DNA of 64,000 bases from Fistulifera solaris (taxonomy: Eukaryota), in NCBI GenBank assembly GCA_030295235.1, contig AP026124.1:2356001-2420000 (forward strand), read 5' to 3'. Positions within the stretch are counted from its first letter, which is position 1. Every line of letters starts with the position of its first letter. The notes under the pieces were generated by a model, which was not told the DNA's origin, did not search any database, and saw nothing but the letters and a program-made list of their open reading frames with translations. Below, in pieces: positions 44,315 to 49,895 of the stretch. The translations under genes and the position numbers were made by a program.

Positions 44315-45487
44315 TTAAAAGAACAATGCACCGCTCTCTTTCTTTCCAAAGTCTTCATTCCGGGCTTCGGTATGCTCATCGAAGTTGTCAGCCAAAAGGA
44401 ACAAAGAGTTGCGCGATAGATTTCGAACGAGGTCCCTAACTTCCGATTTGACAGTTTCCTTTTGAATTTCGCGATGTTTTTCACCCGACATCAAAAGTTC
44501 CCAAGCATGATGGCATTCGTCGATGACACCTTTGGCATATTCTTTGTTCATGAACTTTTCATCCAAGCCAAAGACGTTAGGCGGCTTTCCATCTGGGATT
44601 TTGTAAGTTCGGTACCATTCACGAATTGCATCAAGCTGACCGGGGAGCTCGCGTTCGACGTCCTCAATATCGTTGAGAAAAGGCGCCCACTTATCTTCGA
44701 TGTCAATGACGACGACTTTCCAATCGCACTCGCCCTCGTCAATCATTAGCAAAACACCCAATACCTTGACTGCACGGACGTCCTGTTACAAATGTACATA
44801 AATGAGTTCAACCTACGCTCCAACGCTAGCTATCTCGACACGAAAAGGCACTTACACCGGGCTGGATGATTCTGGCACCAATCTCACATACATCCAATGG
44901 ATCATTATCTCCACGGCAACCATCGGCATCTGGATGAATGAATGTAGGGTCTTCCCAGGTTTGAGGAAAGCATCCGTAGTTGAAGAAGATGTCTCCTTTT
45001 TGAACTGATGAGGGCAATAAAAATGAGTGAACGGCAGATTGCTTACGTAACAGGATCCCTCGAACACCTACCTCACGCAGTTGCCCTTTCTTTGTATCCT
45101 GTTTAATAGGATTTCCTTCTTCGTCAGTAGCAATCTCAAACTTTTTTCTGCAGAGAAGATTCGAGACCATGAGAACGAGATTCTCGTGCACACGACGGCG
45201 TCGAAGGCAGAATTTACGTACCGAGTGAATTTGGGAATCTCGCAAACAAAGTTCAAATAAGGAGTTTCAGCCTTTGTTACAGGATCCATGTGATAAAGAG
45301 AGATATCATGCCACAAACTGATCTTCTTCTTCTTTTCAGGGCAGACTGCTTGAAGACGATAATCGAGCGTGTCGGCTTCCCCGTGATGACTCAACTCGAG
45401 CTCCGAACCCGGGCCGCGAGAGTTGTTTCGCTTCAGCTTTCGCACTTCGCTGAGCGGAACAAGGAGTTCTTCGTCTGTTGATGACAT
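44315..45487 (-). CDS. soluble inorganic pyrophosphatase (family I)
   Basis: [59 protein letters not shown]; several short introns. Confidence 0.95.
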
Positions 45488-46095
45488 TTTGAGTTAATGT
45501 CTGTTGTTATATAAAATAAATAAGAGAGCTCTTGTTTCGTTTGTGGTTTGTGGTCGTGCTGCTGGTCTTGGTTTTTGCGTCGACTTTTCCAAAGTCATTT
45601 ATTTACTCCGATTTTCTTCCACTGCAACGGGGAAACGGGAAACGTATGCGCCAACACGTTGACAATCGACAATCATAGATCATAGTTCTTCCGTCTGTCG
45701 TTTACTACAATCGAGCGGATGCTTGAGGCTTTTGTATAGCCTCAGTTTGTGCACACGTCAGTTTCCTAAAAATGAGGTCCTCATAACCAAACGGGACACA
45801 ACTTGACTGACCCTGCTGTCGATAGATTTCATGGTACCAGGAATCATGGGTAGGCGGCACGAACAAATTCTGGGCGACACGTAGCGGCTTCCTAGGTTTC
45901 TTACGCTCGCGATAGCCTCGTAGTAAATAAATTTAGCTAGTTTATTGTCCAGAGTGTATTTCAAACTGGCAACGGTTTTTTTCTCGAAACATCGGCCGTG
46001 ACGGCAAATGTTTCATCGGCTTACCTCTGTCGTCTTTCATTCTGATAATCAAGAATACACTAAGTCTTTATTGAATAAACTCTCTCTCAACAATC

Positions 46096-46524
46096 ACGGG
46101 CCGCAACCAGATAGGCGGTCGGGCCAAGTCAGATTACTATGTCGGCTCGGAGGCCAACTTGACTAGCTCTGATGTTGCAACCATTGTCCGTTCGTTCCAT
46201 CGAGAGTGGAGATGCGTTGGGAAGCCAAGCATCGACGTGGACGGCAACATCTTCGTATATAAGTTTGCTCATTTGAATGCTGGTGCCGTATACGAGCTTG
46301 TCGCTTTTCTTTCTGCATGGGCGGCCTACGGAATCGACGTTACTTGCGTTTTGGATCCGCCGCTTGGTGTGCGCGACGACACAAAACGTGCCAGTGTCAA
46401 GCGCAGAGGCGAAAGGACAGCGAAGAAATCAAAACTTATGCGCTTGGGTCAATACGTACTAGACCCTGATAACAATTCGCTTCCGCCCGGCGTGAAACCC
46501 ACAGTGGTGAAGTGTGCGACTTGA
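46096..46524 (+). pseudogene. truncated FEN1/XPG/EXO1-like PIN-domain nuclease N-terminus
   Basis: IDVDGNIFVYK...GIDVTCVLD...DDTKRASVKRR matches the XPG_N pattern; probable mutated start ACG-GGC at 46096, in frame with ORF 46159-46524. Confidence 0.55.
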
Positions 46525-46560
46525 AAAAGTAATTAAGGACGCGGAAACACACTACCGGAA

Positions 46561-47590
46561 ATGAACCCGACTGTGAGGAAGATAGCAAATTATCCGCCGG
46601 TAGTTCCACGGGTGAAAAAACTAGTCGATACGAAAAGAGTAAGCCAACGACAAGGTTACCGTGGCACTATGATCCGACAATTAACATAAACACGCCAGCG
46701 GCTAAAAGTCAAGCTTGAAACTGGTTTCACAGATATATTCGCACTTCTGCGTTTCGTAATGGTGGTTTGCGAGGGAGACATTGGGAAAGCGACGAAACGA
46801 GTAACAACCGTGACATGGTTGGAGGAGTGGTATTTGTATTTTGAGTGGGCTTGGGGAAGATCCGACAAGATACGCCGACAGTGCAGCAAAATACAATACC
46901 AATGACAAATCAGCGCGTCGGATTGTTAAAGTCAAGCGACAACAAGTATTGCAGGCAAGACGACGATGGCCATTCTTCGCTACACACCGGGAAGATGTGC
47001 TGTTACGGGATGAAAAATGGAATGATAGGTATCCTGGTAAGCGCGTGGTGTTTTGGGATGATACAAACATCAATCTACCAATGCCAAGTGACGCGTCCTT
47101 GAATCGTCGAACATATAGCAGTTATTAAGTTGGAAATGTTGGAAAAGGAGGAGTATTCTTGCAGCTGTGTGGATGGCTGGGAGTATGGAACTTGTGGACT
47201 GGGGCAGTTTCAGACTCGGCATACCTTATTGGAAGTGGAATACTAGAAATGCAGAACGATTTTGCAGCATGGGATTCGAGCATCGACGAGTCTTTTACGA
47301 ATATCCTAGACGAAGGATTTCGTTGCTAAATTGCTGCGTGGAGGATGGTTGGCCAGTACATCTTGCAACCTTCTTTCGCAAAAAGTGATCGACAATTCCC
47401 AACAAATCAAATCATCTCTTCAGCGGCAATAGCAAAGGATAGAGGGGGGAACGAAAGAGCGGTGAATGTTTGCAAGCGCTCAGGCTTGCTAAAAAGGGGG
47501 CTTGCCAACAACGATTCCATGGCAGAGCTCGATGACGCATGCCTTGCATGGAGCTTCCAAGCCAATTTCATGTTTGATACAGTGATCTAG
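46561..47590 (+). mobile_element. decayed PIF/Harbinger-superfamily (ISL2EU-like, DDE_Tnp_4) transposase
   Basis: HTH region VKLETGF..LLRF..TWLEEWYLY; catalytic WDDTN, YSSY*.GN.GKGGV, WTGAVSD, ILDEGF, R..NERAV; one frameshift near 46860 and TAA stops at about 46687, 47126 and 47327. Confidence 0.8.
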
Positions 47591-47887
47591 GAATACTTCT
47601 ATGAATACATTTAATTTTTGGTTCATATTGAATTGTTTGGTGGTTGCGATTCATCATTTTGTGAGTGAATAGTGGGCATTTCCGTAAGTGAGACGTAAAA
47701 ATAACCCGGAAAACATGAGAATAACACGGTCTATCACGGACGTAGCCGTACGTAGAAAAATGTACTGAGTTTTTGGCGTCGCCCAAATTTGGCTGAGCCG
47801 CCTGTCCATTCCGACAATGATGGTTGCGGGGCGGAATAAAGCAACGAGCTTCCACAGCCGCCACTGAAAACGCTGCTCAGAATTGCG

Positions 47888-49895
47888 ACAGCTTTGAGCA
47901 GCGGTTGCGAGGATCCTCGACAAGCGTTGAAAACCTTCTTCAGAACAAACTTCGTCGCAAGTCGCAATTTCCAAAACGGCATACCGTGACTCTTTTAGTC
48001 ACGACTACAATTTTTCCGATCTCGAAAACTGACACAGCGCGTTATAAGCCCCAACTCTCTCTAGCAATCGAGTTTCAGATCGACATGAAAAAAGCTTTTG
48101 CGGAAACCCAACGTCGACACTGTGTTCAGTCAGGCATGTCGTGGCGTGTTTTTTCCTCTTGCTGTTTCTGTTGTTCTACCTGACGGGGCGGGCGGCCGAC
48201 GGTCCGACGCTATTTGATAAGTCACGAGGAAGCATGTTTGCGACCAAAGGACTTGACGTCGTAAAGAGAAGTTTCGCATTGATTTTAAGATATTCCGATC
48301 CGTCCTTCGATACCGTATCATTGGAGTTCGGCACTGATTGGATGCACAGTAGACCCAATAGACTTGAACGGGCGACGGCTCCTCCTTGTGATGGACGCTG
48401 CGCGCGAAAAAAAGAAAGTGCTTGGAGTTTTGAGGCGCTGCGAAAGAGGAGGAGCAGCAAGAGATAGCCTCATCTCTTGAAAAGCATTATGATTTTATTT
48501 GAAAGCACGCGCACAACACTTGTACTAGCTATCGTAGCTGTTACACGGACTAACCGCCAATGAGGTTTGGGACACGAAACTCCCAGGGATAGTGGAAGGA
48601 AATCAGTTCAAGGACGGATATAACATGGGAAACATTCTTTGCTCTACTCCGATATGCCCTCCTCTGCCGAGGCAAGATTGGAATGATGTTTATCAGATTT
48701 TGTCGGACCTATACACAACACCATCAGCACTCATTACATACCTAGTGAAAATAGCAAGAACCCCGCACAAGCGAGTTCACTATAGTCTGCCACAAGGGGG
48801 TGGGCTTGAGCCAACTAATATTGGTCCTGTGATTCCTTTCCTGCGAGACGGCTTAATCAATTGCGCCAGAGGCTTTACGTACATTCTACCCATGAACTCC
48901 CTTATGGGCAAGACGATGGCAGCTGAATATTTGGTTGCGAAATTACTACAAGGGCAAAACGCACTGTACGTCAGCGCTTCAGGTGATAAAGAGATTGTCA
49001 ACACTCTTCAAGCAACTTTGAATACTACAGTGGGTAGCACCATGCTAGCTAAATGCTTAGTAGCCGCATTGGGGACAACCGGAGTCGCTCGCGACTATGA
49101 ACTCCCCATCGCTTTTGATTATTGACGAAGCGAACCGCGAGCGAATCCAATAAAGCTTTCATTGAAGACCTCTTCCTGGAGATTAATCGTGACAGAGGTT
49201 TAACTTGTGTGATTCTGACCAATAAAGAAGAGGTAGCCGAAGCCTTGCTAGCGCTCAATGGAGGTAAAATTCGACCATTTCCTGGCTCCGTTGTTGAACC
49301 TTGGAAGCCCCTCGAACGGCCTGAATGGTTGCGGAATGTTTATTGGACTAGTGCGCAACTCCAAGAGCTGATCCGGTATATGTTCGGAACTCAGTTAGGT
49401 GATTGCGTCGACAATTTGTTTTCGCCACAGTTCCCTGCAGATGAGCAAACGCCGGGGGATATCCTGCATGTGGTGGACTTGAAGATTCAAAAAAAGAAAT
49501 TTACTGATAACAGGGTGCTATGTAGACGACATCTACCAATACCAAGGTCTATACTTGTCGGTGTAATTGCTGCAACCGCCAGTTTGATTTTATCAAGAAG
49601 AAAGTAAAGTCCTTATCTATTTGCACTTTATTTATCTCACACGTGCTATGAATAAGCAAGTTTTCATAAAAGCAAATGATAACCGTTGTAAAGTCTTACT
49701 TTCTATTTTTCACGCGCTGCAACGAACTAAATTGCCACTTCAACCGAAGGTGCTGCTGTTGTTATGCGGAAAGCTTTGGCCATTGTTGTCAGGTTCCTCC
49801 TCGAACAGCATGCAAAAAAACAACGTTCAGAACAAAACTTTCGTCGCAAGAGCGAAAACAACATACCGTGACTCTGTTAGTCACGAGTCACGACC
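47888..49895. repeat. diverged ~120-bp direct repeats at 47888-48005 and 49769-49895
   Basis: Both copies share agctttg...ttcagaacaaa(a)ctt(t)cgtcgcaag...cataccgtgactctNttagtcacga. Confidence 0.75.
48592..49607 (+). CDS. P-loop NTPase-like protein, frameshifted (possible pseudogene)
   Basis: Walker A-like YILPMNSLMGKT; Walker B LLIIDEAN in the next frame after the C-run near 49105; hydrophobic C-terminal tail. Confidence 0.5.

What the first reader, a model, noticed from the sequence alone, without database searches (positions are those of the whole stretch)
46096..47590. Harbinger/ISL2EU-like transposase coupled to a FEN1/XPG-like PIN nuclease: candidate new two-gene DNA transposon
Seen: a co-oriented pair outside any housekeeping gene. 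The first ORF (probable original start MGRNQIG at 46096, now ACG) has the XPG_N pattern IDVDGNIFVYK...GIDVTCVLD...TKRASVKRR. It breaks off about 40 bp before a DDE_Tnp_4-type transposase with HTH and D(WDDTN)-D(LDEGF)-E(NERA) motifs. Known: PIF/Harbinger elements carry a Myb/SANT accessory ORF and ISL2EU elements carry a YqaJ/lambda-exonuclease ORF; I know of no described family with a 5'-flap PIN nuclease partner. Inference: this is an internally deleted copy of an element whose accessory protein starts with a FEN1-like nuclease, possibly for processing ends or gaps.
Basis: partly seen in the sequence, partly recalled or inferred. Interest (0 to 1): 0.8.

Follow-up and report, generated by a model that had tools for sequence, protein, structure and literature searches.

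The report
Dead transposon with nuclease-like head domain
This is a decayed copy of a jumping gene; in one intact relative the same protein carries both the cutting enzyme and an extra front domain that resembles a DNA flap-cutting nuclease, a fusion I could not find described, though the nuclease identity is only weakly supported.

Summary
The sequence features are real, but the two-gene reading is probably wrong. Window 46096-47590 is one broken reading frame. It is colinear with the intact 562-aa protein P0124. P0124 carries an N-terminal domain of about 225 aa, a basic linker and a DDE_Tnp_4 transposase in a single polypeptide.

The window copy has these lesions:
- ACG where relatives have the start ATG;
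- about 80 codons missing, including the second half of the N-domain;
- several frameshifts;
- two in-frame TAA stops in the DDE core.

The copy lies between candidate 33-nt imperfect inverted repeats at 45846-45878 and 47778-47809, an element of about 1.96 kb. There is no room for a second gene, and none was detected. The same organism holds diverged copies.

The transposase family is large: 127 relatives, including diatom proteins, with invariant D/D/D/E residues. The N-domain family is small, and only three cases show what lies downstream. All three show the transposase.

The FEN1/XPG_N likeness has several weak leads but no significant profile or fold match.

Verdict: a new variant of a known kind (PHIS-type transposon). 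Interest is moderate.

The parts
45846..45878 (+). candidate left terminal inverted repeat
   Evidence: This is the best local alignment between 45500-46095 and the reverse complement of 47591-48500: 26 of 33 positions, score 29. The score is reached by 8 of 1000 shuffles and 2 of 287 random window pairs. A diverged contig of run X1 starts to match the window exactly at 45846, preceded by 22 unrelated letters (table 7).
46096..46098 (+). ACG at the place of the start codon
   Evidence: Read directly. P0122, P0124, P0125 and P0126 start with Met here and continue alike.
46099..46488 (+). first half of the N-terminal FEN/XPG_N-like domain (frame 1), with a 7-residue gap
   Evidence: tblastn: P0124 residues 2-136 at 50% identity, E=4e-33; P0122 residues 2-135 at 52.6%, E=5e-41. 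It contains the near-invariant Asp48, Asp50, Ser52, Asp87 and Arg93 positions of alignment A3.
46517..46549 (+). possible remnant of the second long helix of the N-domain (frame 2)
   Evidence: Weak but colinear tblastn match to P0122 residues 149-159: 7 of 11 identical, E=0.95. Inference only.
46550..46613 (+). deletion junction: about 78 codons of P0124 (roughly residues 160-237) have no counterpart
   Evidence: No match to P0124 between the pieces ending at 46549 and starting at 46614. The missing part includes the strand-helix with Gln198-Ala-Asp200 of P0124. Those positions were counted by hand.
46614..46700 (+). basic linker before the transposase (frame 3)
   Evidence: P0124 residues 238-266, 34% identity, grouped E=2.7e-21. 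P0005 and P0107 match the same piece.
46704..46707 (+). run of four A; one A too many for the frame
   Evidence: The otherwise identical 1305-nt contig of run X1 (record 3, 0 other letters) leaves out one letter at 46704 (tables 4 and 8). That deletion would join frame 3 upstream to frame 1 downstream, as in P0124.
46708..46863 (+). N-terminal region of the transposase (frame 1)
   Evidence: P0124 residues 269-320, 61.5% identity. P0012 gives a weak HTH_Tnp_4 match just downstream of the aligned region, which the window encodes in 46892 onward (E=0.0044; alignment).
46853..47590 (+). DDE catalytic core (frame 2), with in-frame TAA at 47126-47128 and 47327-47329 and the natural TAG stop at 47588-47590
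   Evidence: P0124 residues 318-562 at 67.8% identity, E=2e-119. DDE_Tnp_4 at E=3.3e-4 with X at the stops. The D/D/D/E positions are kept. Relatives end at the same stop.
47778..47809 (-). candidate right terminal inverted repeat
   Evidence: Partner of 45846-45878. The loose end of a diverged X1 contig at 47767 still resembles the next window bases (table 7; comparison by eye).

Best explanation
Window 45846-47809 is a dead, internally deleted copy of a small cut-and-paste DNA transposon with a single open reading frame. The element belongs to the PHIS assemblage (PIF/Harbinger, ISL2EU, Spy and relatives). The family occurs in diatoms and in public metagenome and assembly collections.

In the intact form, seen in relative P0124 (562 aa), one polypeptide carries four parts in order:
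- an N-terminal domain of about 225 residues, most likely a trimmed FEN1/XPG_N-like (PIN-type) fold;
- a basic, NLS-like linker;
- a helix-turn-helix region;
- a DDE_Tnp_4 catalytic core.

Shown: the colinearity of the window with P0124, the lesions, the conservation of the DDE residues, the coupling of the N-domain to this transposase in 3 of 3 cases with readable downstream sequence, and further diverged copies in the same organism.

Inferred: the DDE core cuts and joins the 3' ends. The N-domain supplies the 5'-strand work, either cleaving the non-transferred strand at the transposon ends or trimming 5' flaps at the gapped insertion site. That is the role played by the separate YqaJ exonuclease ORF of ISL2EU, the nuclease of AcademX and TnsA of Tn7. 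This copy cannot make any of these products.
For: Architecture:
- ORF1 has 12 hits at E<=0.001 among 1.84 billion representatives. Nine of them form a family: P0122-P0126, P0128 and P0131-P0133.
- P0124 is 562 aa. Residues 2-132 match ORF1, and DDE_Tnp_4 matches residues 386-544 at E=2.3e-8, 34.3 bits, above the cut-off.
- The window matches P0124 in order over residues 2-136, 238-266, 269-320 and 318-562.
- In a tree of the core the window copy is sister to P0124 (78 of 122 sequences kept).
- P0078 (403 aa), from a distant clade, also has the domain in front of the core (BLASTP E=2e-4).

Element:
- Candidate inverted repeats.
- 14 other ORFs between 45705 and 48486 have no Pfam family at E<=0.1; the single weaker match is HDA2-3 at E=0.11.
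- Run X1 holds diverged contigs over both parts: record 2 over 45910-46180 plus 46622-47215, and records 4 and 6 over the core.

Transposase:
- 127 relatives.
- D386 112/112, D438 121/122, D470 115/117, E518 108/112, K525 109/111.

FEN-like domain:
- The nearest named ESM-Atlas clusters of P0124 residues 1-226 are XPG_N, Pox_G5 and PIN-like_DDX60 (scores 0.84-0.89; 10 of the ten best share a clan).
- 11 of 43 listed Foldseek PDB rows are Exo1, FEN1 or XPG, at E 0.1-0.4.
- 15 of 50 BFVD rows are flap endonuclease, XPG/RAD2, poxvirus G5 or Asteroid proteins, at E 0.018-0.44.
- XPG_N at E=0.029 in P0125.
- Gly2, Asp48, Asp50, Asp87 and Arg93 are near-invariant.
- A Gln-Ala-Asp-Ser motif is shared by P0124, P0122 and the distant P0136. 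It fits the 'two Asp/Glu/Gln before H4' of FEN-like domains described in PMC5499597 (passage).
Against: Architecture:
- Only one intact fused protein exists in the collections searched. One search found P0124 alone among 1270 candidates of 309-984 aa.
- Of the 40 relatives whose N-termini I listed, the roughly 23 with 20 or more residues upstream of the core show short, unrelated N-termini (apart from P0124 and P0078) and lack the domain.
- Some N-domain proteins end in a stop: P0122 (235 aa) and P0134, an MMETSP ORF called complete at 180 aa. A two-ORF or two-exon layout in part of the family is therefore not excluded.
- P0078 joins the domain directly to the core and skips the linker, so it could be a deletion product or a faulty gene model.

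FEN-like identity has no significant match:
- Pfam finds nothing for the window ORF at E<=10.
- XPG_N appears in only 1 of 15 distinct family proteins scanned, and below the cut-off.
- Profiles A1 and A3 find no FEN-family chain in the PDB at E<=10.
- Both AlphaFold models are poor, pLDDT 54.9 and 55.1.
- The second model gives no FEN1 rows, only two VapC rows at E 0.6-1.1.
- hhalign against 27 bacterial PolI 5'-nuclease domains gives probability 0.74% and P=0.076.
- P0124 has no H3TH region and lacks most of the later acidic residues of FEN1.

Element ends:
- The inverted repeat is 79% matched and supported at only about P=0.01.
- No target-site duplication could be read.
Confidence: 0.6

Rival explanations
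1. Two-gene element. A FEN-like accessory protein is made from its own ORF or exon upstream of a separate transposase gene. On this view P0124 and P0078 are secondary fusions or gene-model artefacts.
For: - N-domain proteins that end in a stop: P0122, 235 aa, and P0134, 180 aa, called complete in a transcriptome.
- Most long relatives of the transposase begin with their own Met and have no N-domain.
- The domain turns up next to two distant clades of the transposase tree. That is easier to explain if a separate upstream ORF is widespread but seldom captured on short contigs.
- P0075 and P0078 have nearly the same core but different N-termini.
Against: - P0124 is one uninterrupted 562-aa frame on a 2092-bp contig.
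- The window is colinear with P0124, including the linker.
- There is no intergenic spacer with its own start in the window. The first Met-like match of P0002 lies inside the colinear stretch.
- The element is about 1.96 kb, or about 2.2 kb without the deletion.
- P0136 continues past the point where P0134 stops. This suggests an intron or a lesion at that point, not a natural end.
Confidence: 0.17
2. The fusion is real, but the N-domain is not a FEN-like nuclease. It would be a lineage-specific domain of another alpha/beta fold, used for DNA binding, oligomerisation or regulation.
For: - No significant profile or fold match.
- Low-confidence models.
- The wide structural search returns only a helical hairpin.
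- Atlas scores are under 0.9, which the tool calls a lead only, and all ten hits agreeing happens for a third of shuffled proteins.
- The domain is shorter than a FEN core and lacks H3TH.
Against: - Four independent weak methods point to the same family and to no other: language-model features, Foldseek against the PDB, Foldseek against BFVD and Pfam on P0125.
- The acidic residues sit where a FEN-like core has them, after the first and second strands and before helix 4.
- The conserved Met-Gly start recalls the FEN1 family. That feature is recalled, not tested.
Confidence: 0.2
3. Chance neighbourhood: a fragment of a host gene lying next to an unrelated transposase pseudogene.
For: The window shows only one copy, and the two parts are separated by stops.
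Against: - The same two parts are joined in P0124 and P0078.
- A diverged contig of the same organism spans both parts (record 2).
- Both parts lie inside the candidate inverted repeats.
Confidence: 0.03

Closest known systems
PHIS assemblage of DDE transposons (PIF/Harbinger, ISL2EU, Spy, Pangu, Nuwa)
   Same: - DDE_Tnp_4-type core.
- On P0124 the spacing D386...K415...D438...D470...P490...R514(3)E518, counted by hand, follows the signature D-K-D-D-P-R(3)E quoted in PMC4122938 (passage).
- A helix-turn-helix hint upstream.
- Inverted-repeat ends.
   Different: - Pfam scores are weak. Of the eight long relatives scanned, one reaches the cut-off, as does P0124, so this is a divergent lineage.
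- The K-to-D spacing is 22, not 29.
- The group within PHIS is unresolved, because no reference transposases were available to me.
- No Myb/SANT or YqaJ ORF.
- An N-terminal FEN-like domain is present.
ISL2EU elements
   Same: A PHIS transposase coupled to an enzyme that works on 5' ends. PMC4482050 and PMC4122938 describe a second ORF with a YqaJ exonuclease domain (passages).
   Different: - There the nuclease is a separate ORF of another fold, and the transposase has a THAP finger.
- Here the nuclease-like part is fused and no THAP domain is found.
- The 2-bp target-site duplication of ISL2EU could not be tested here.
Spy elements
   Same: A single ORF with a helix-turn-helix at the N-terminus, and small size (passage in PMC4122938).
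   Different: - Spy has no extra N-terminal enzyme-like domain.
- It is reported from invertebrates only.
- It inserts between AAA and TTT without duplication. One diverged contig here has an A-run before the element (table 7); the window copy does not.
AcademX lineage of Academ transposons
   Same: A DDE transposase travelling with a nuclease. PMC10045372 says the AcademH and AcademX lineages encode a helicase and a nuclease (passage). That the nuclease is XPG-like is recalled, not read: the source paper is not held, and no held paper carries both words.
   Different: - A different transposase superfamily.
- The nuclease is, as I recall, a full XPG-type protein and not a trimmed N-terminal domain of the transposase.
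FEN1/XPG/Rad2 structure-specific nucleases (Pfam XPG_N, XPG_I)
   Same: - The predicted order of strands and helices includes two long helices where the helical arch sits.
- Acidic residues follow strands 1 and 2, and Gln/Asp precede helix 4.
- Weak fold and feature matches.
   Different: - No significant profile match.
- The domain stops after about 225 residues.
- No H3TH.
- The later Asp pair is not conserved.
- In the window copy the second half is deleted.
Tn7 TnsA/TnsB (mechanistic analogy, from established knowledge)
   Same: Division of labour between a DDE enzyme acting on the 3' ends and a second nuclease acting on the 5' ends.
   Different: Tn7 is bacterial, uses two proteins, and TnsA has a restriction-enzyme fold. 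No homology is implied.

Membership tests
DDE_Tnp_4 / PHIS transposases | Pfam PF13359 match above the gathering score | tested here: met
   P0124 scores 34.3 bits against a 24.8-bit cut-off, and P0002 scores 27.3 bits. The broken window copy itself reaches only 20.7 bits.
DDE_Tnp_4 / PHIS transposases | conserved catalytic Asp, Asp, Glu with the R(3)E motif | tested here: met
   D386 112/112, D470 115/117, E518 108/112, and D438 121/122. The window keeps all four. The signature is taken from PMC4122938 and the spacing was counted by hand. One spacing deviates.
DDE_Tnp_4 / PHIS transposases | terminal inverted repeats | tested here: inconclusive
   One pair, 26 of 33 positions. The score is reached by 8 of 1000 shuffles and 2 of 287 random pairs. 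Only one copy could be read. The repeat finder did not report the pair.
DDE_Tnp_4 / PHIS transposases | group-specific target-site duplication (3 bp Harbinger, 2 bp ISL2EU, none in Spy) | tested here: inconclusive
   The two bases outside the candidate repeats are the same on both sides (read). That happens by chance 1 time in 16. No empty site with known sequence was available.
PIF/Harbinger proper | second ORF with a Myb/SANT domain | tested here: not met
   14 other ORFs between 45705 and 48486 have no such Pfam match at E<=1. The element is nearly filled by one frame.
ISL2EU proper | YqaJ exonuclease ORF and a THAP domain in the transposase | tested here: not met
   Neither was found in the window ORFs, in P0124 or in eight long relatives.
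FEN1/XPG (XPG_N + XPG_I) | significant XPG_N profile match | tested here: not met
   The window ORF has none at E<=10. The best in the family is P0125 at E=0.029, 15.3 bits against a 22-bit cut-off, in 1 of 15 proteins scanned.
FEN1/XPG (XPG_N + XPG_I) | FEN-like PIN fold | tested here: inconclusive
FEN1/XPG (XPG_N + XPG_I) | four Asp after S1, S2 and S4 and before H5, plus two Asp/Glu/Gln before H4 (PMC5499597) | tested here: inconclusive
   Candidates for S1 (Asp48/Asp50), S2 (Asp87) and pre-H4 (Gln198, Asp200) are conserved. An Asp after S4 occurs in P0124 only, and there is no candidate before H5. The assignment to strands rests on poor models.
FEN1/XPG (XPG_N + XPG_I) | C-terminal H3TH/H2TH DNA-binding module | tested here: not met
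   No such Pfam match in P0124. The sequence after residue 225 or so is a Lys/Arg-rich linker.

The most novel reading that the evidence does not exclude
Diatoms carry an undescribed PHIS lineage whose transposase has captured a trimmed FEN1/XPG-type structure-specific nuclease as its N-terminal domain. One polypeptide would then cut both strands at the transposon ends, 3' by the DDE core and 5' by the FEN-like head, and would need no accessory ORF. This would be a third independent pairing of a eukaryotic DDE transposase with a 5'-end nuclease, after YqaJ in ISL2EU and the nuclease of AcademX, and the first as a fusion.
Probability: 0.3. Interest if true: 0.7.

Novelty: new variant of a known kind. 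Interest (0 to 1): 0.5.

Why it matters
How PIF/Harbinger-type transposases deal with the second DNA strand is not settled, and the papers I read call the role of their accessory ORFs unknown (PMC4482050). A lineage that has welded a flap-nuclease-like domain onto the transposase would offer a compact, single-protein system for testing whether a 5'-end nuclease is part of the chemistry. It would also add a case of transposons recruiting repair nucleases. For genome annotation, it explains a small set of orphan diatom proteins as transposon parts. The window copy itself is dead and of no functional consequence.

Tried and rejected
- Genome and other copies. No whole genome is held for the window, so co-occurrence could not be counted genome-wide. 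The window has no second copy.
- DNA context of relatives. The search for related loci failed on A1. It found nothing with A2 in metagenome contigs. With P0124 it found only two truncated C-terminal pieces, L001 and L002. Viral contigs gave nothing.
- More family members. The region search found only P0124. The profile search with A1 found only P0122, P0132 and P0133.
- Sequence profiles. The PDB gave annexin and other chance rows. PHROGs gave nothing below E=0.16. NCBIfam gave nothing for the transposase.
- Profile-profile test against true XPG_N. I could not obtain archaeal or eukaryotic FEN1 sequences. L001 lies in no held record, and the control genomes ring for PF00752 but give no loci. 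As a stand-in I used 27 of 29 alphaproteobacterial PolI 5'-nuclease domains. hhalign gave probability 0.74% and P=0.076, not significant.
- Earlier findings of this scan: nothing.
- Sequencing runs: no RNA holder is listed.
- Inverted repeats. The repeat finder and a short-word BLAST did not show the terminal repeats. A gapped local alignment did.
- Literature. I found no paper that joins XPG_N or PIN with DDE_Tnp_4 or Harbinger in a transposon. These are word searches of open-access text only. Repbase reports and supplements were not seen.
I stopped that step and counted positions by hand.
Full report
**What is in the sequence.** The window is eukaryotic nuclear DNA with ordinary housekeeping genes: Brr2-type helicase, RBM22-like, Vta1, a 2-oxoacid acyltransferase and an inorganic pyrophosphatase. 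The finding lies between the pyrophosphatase gene (minus strand, ending near 45490) and unassigned ORFs from 48048 on.

An open frame runs 46075-46524. Codon 46096 is ACG. Downstream, pieces of a transposase lie in two frames with in-frame TAA stops, ending at the TAG at 47588-47590.

Pfam finds nothing in any single piece. Read with X at the stops, 46814-47590 gives DDE_Tnp_4 at E=3.3e-4, below the cut-off. The first ORF has no Pfam family even at E<=10.

**The transposase is a real, large family.** The core has 127 relatives at E<=0.01 among 383 candidates, the best at 64% identity and 1.4e-100. They include proteins named from the diatoms Grammatophora, Odontella and Fragilaria, and many metagenome proteins.

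In an alignment of 122 sequences the acidic residues are almost invariant: D386 112/112, D438 121/122, D470 115/117, E518 108/112, K525 109/111 in P0124 numbering. The window copy keeps them. Their spacing, counted by hand, follows the PHIS signature quoted in PMC4122938, except for one shorter gap.

**The first ORF belongs to the same protein.** A search of 1.84 billion representatives gave 12 hits at E<=0.001. Nine form a family: P0122-P0126, P0128 and P0131-P0133. The other three are a gag-like protein, a bacterial Ig-repeat protein and one more unrelated protein.
- Four of the nine start with Met exactly where the window has ACG.
- P0124 is 562 aa. Its first 132 residues match the ORF, and residues 386-544 are DDE_Tnp_4 at E=2.3e-8, above the cut-off.
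- P0078 (403 aa) also has the domain in front of the core (BLASTP E=2e-4).
- In a tree of the core (78 of 122 sequences kept; 44 with fewer than 200 aligned residues dropped) the window copy is sister to P0124. P0078 sits in a distant clade.

**Lesions of the window copy.** The homology to P0124 runs as follows:

| Window | Frame | P0124 residues | Note |
|---|---|---|---|
| 46099-46488 | 1 | 2-136 | 50% identity, 7-residue gap |
| 46517-46549 | 2 | around 147-158 (by hand) | weak remnant, matched to P0122 residues 149-159 |
| 46614-46700 | 3 | 238-266 | linker |
| 46708-46863 | 1 | 269-320 | |
| 46853-47587 | 2 | 318-562 | 67.8% identity, two TAA stops |

About 78 codons (roughly residues 160-237) are missing. 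They include the strand and helix with Gln198-Ala-Asp200.

An identical contig in run X1 lacks one A of the run at 46704-46707. That would remove one of the frameshifts.

**Limits and copies.** The best alignment between the left flank and the reverse complement of the right flank pairs 45846-45878 with 47778-47809: 26 of 33 positions, score 29. The score is reached by 8 of 1000 shuffles and 2 of 287 random window pairs.

In run X1 a diverged contig begins to match exactly at 45846. Other diverged contigs (records 2, 4 and 6) cover both the N-domain end and the core, so the organism has further copies.

One X1 contig joins 45827 to 48422, skipping 2594 bases, with the letters between unknown. 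This may be a haplotype without the element.

The element is about 1.96 kb. Fourteen other ORFs between 45705 and 48486 show no Myb/SANT, YqaJ or THAP domain.

**Is the N-domain FEN1/XPG-like?**

For:
- The nearest named ESM-Atlas clusters of P0124 residues 1-226 are XPG_N families, Pox_G5 and PIN-like_DDX60, at scores 0.84-0.89.
- With the first AlphaFold model (pLDDT 54.9), 11 of 43 listed Foldseek PDB rows are Exo1, FEN1 or XPG at E 0.1-0.4.
- With the same model, 15 of 50 BFVD rows are flap endonucleases, XPG/RAD2, poxvirus G5 or Asteroid proteins at E 0.018-0.44.
- P0125 gives XPG_N at E=0.029.
- Gly2, Asp48, Asp50, Ser52, Asp87 and Arg93 are near-invariant.
- The Gln-Ala-Asp-Ser motif recurs in the distant P0136. 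This fits the description of FEN-like cores in PMC5499597 (passages).

Against:
- No match is significant anywhere.
- The second model (pLDDT 55.1) gives no FEN rows.
- The wide structural search sees only a helical hairpin.
- hhalign against 27 bacterial PolI 5'-nuclease domains gives P=0.076.
- There is no H3TH module, and the later acidic residues are not conserved.

I put the FEN-like fold at about 0.65. FEN1 residue numbers and the Met-Gly start of that family are recalled, not taken from a call.

**One gene or two?** Three of three cases with readable downstream sequence show the transposase right behind the domain, two of them as one protein.

Against that, only one intact fusion exists in the collections. 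Most long relatives lack the domain. Some N-domain proteins end in a stop. I give the single-ORF reading about 0.6-0.7 for this lineage and leave a two-ORF or two-exon form open for other clades.

**Mechanism (inferred).** The DDE core makes the 3'-end cuts and joins. The N-domain would act on the 5' strand at the ends or at flaps left at the insertion site. This is the task assigned to YqaJ in ISL2EU, to the nuclease of AcademX (passage) and to TnsA in Tn7 (established knowledge). The conserved acidic residues favour an active site. The missing C-terminal modules leave room for a binding-only role.

**Known or new.** The element files under the PHIS assemblage, with the group unresolved. It fails the tests for PIF/Harbinger proper (no Myb/SANT ORF) and ISL2EU proper (no YqaJ, no THAP). 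It resembles Spy in having a single ORF.

Word searches found no paper that joins an XPG_N or PIN domain to a DDE_Tnp_4 transposon. Of the papers cited I read abstracts and passages only. The AcademH paper is not held. Repbase and supplements were not seen.

Verdict: a new variant of a known kind, seen here as a dead copy.

Noticed in passing
window 47961-48004 and 49843-49886: A 44-nt direct repeat (84% alike), each copy holding a short palindrome. The pair brackets two adjoining ORFs (48538-49125 and 49119-49607) that look like one frameshifted gene and have no Pfam match.
   Followed up: no
window 45827-48422: One contig of run X1 joins 45827 to 48422, skipping 2594 bases; the letters between are unknown. 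The left edge lies 19 bases from the candidate left inverted repeat. It may be the other haplotype without the element, or a diverged stretch (table 5).
   Followed up: partly
window 46704-46707: A contig of run X1 that is otherwise identical has one A fewer in this run of four. The window sequence therefore carries either a real one-base polymorphism or a homopolymer error (tables 4 and 8).
   Followed up: partly
window 45148-45221: Contigs of runs X2 and X3 join 45147 to 45222. The skipped ends read CT..AC, which is GT..AG on the minus strand, so this is an intron of the pyrophosphatase gene (table 5).
   Followed up: partly
window 47108-47295: Run X2, whose contigs are spliced elsewhere, holds a 188-nt contig identical to this part of the dead transposase (table 8). 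Whether it is RNA is not on record.
   Followed up: no
protein P0028 (relative of window 46853-47587): A member of this otherwise diatom and marine-eukaryote transposase family is filed in NCBI under a Fusibacter metagenome-assembled genome. Contamination of that bin seems likelier than a bacterial host.
   Followed up: no
proteins P0075 and P0078: The two have almost the same transposase core but different N-termini. P0078 has the N-domain joined straight to the core; P0075 has a short ordinary N-terminus. This could mark a recent deletion or two gene models of one element.
   Followed up: no
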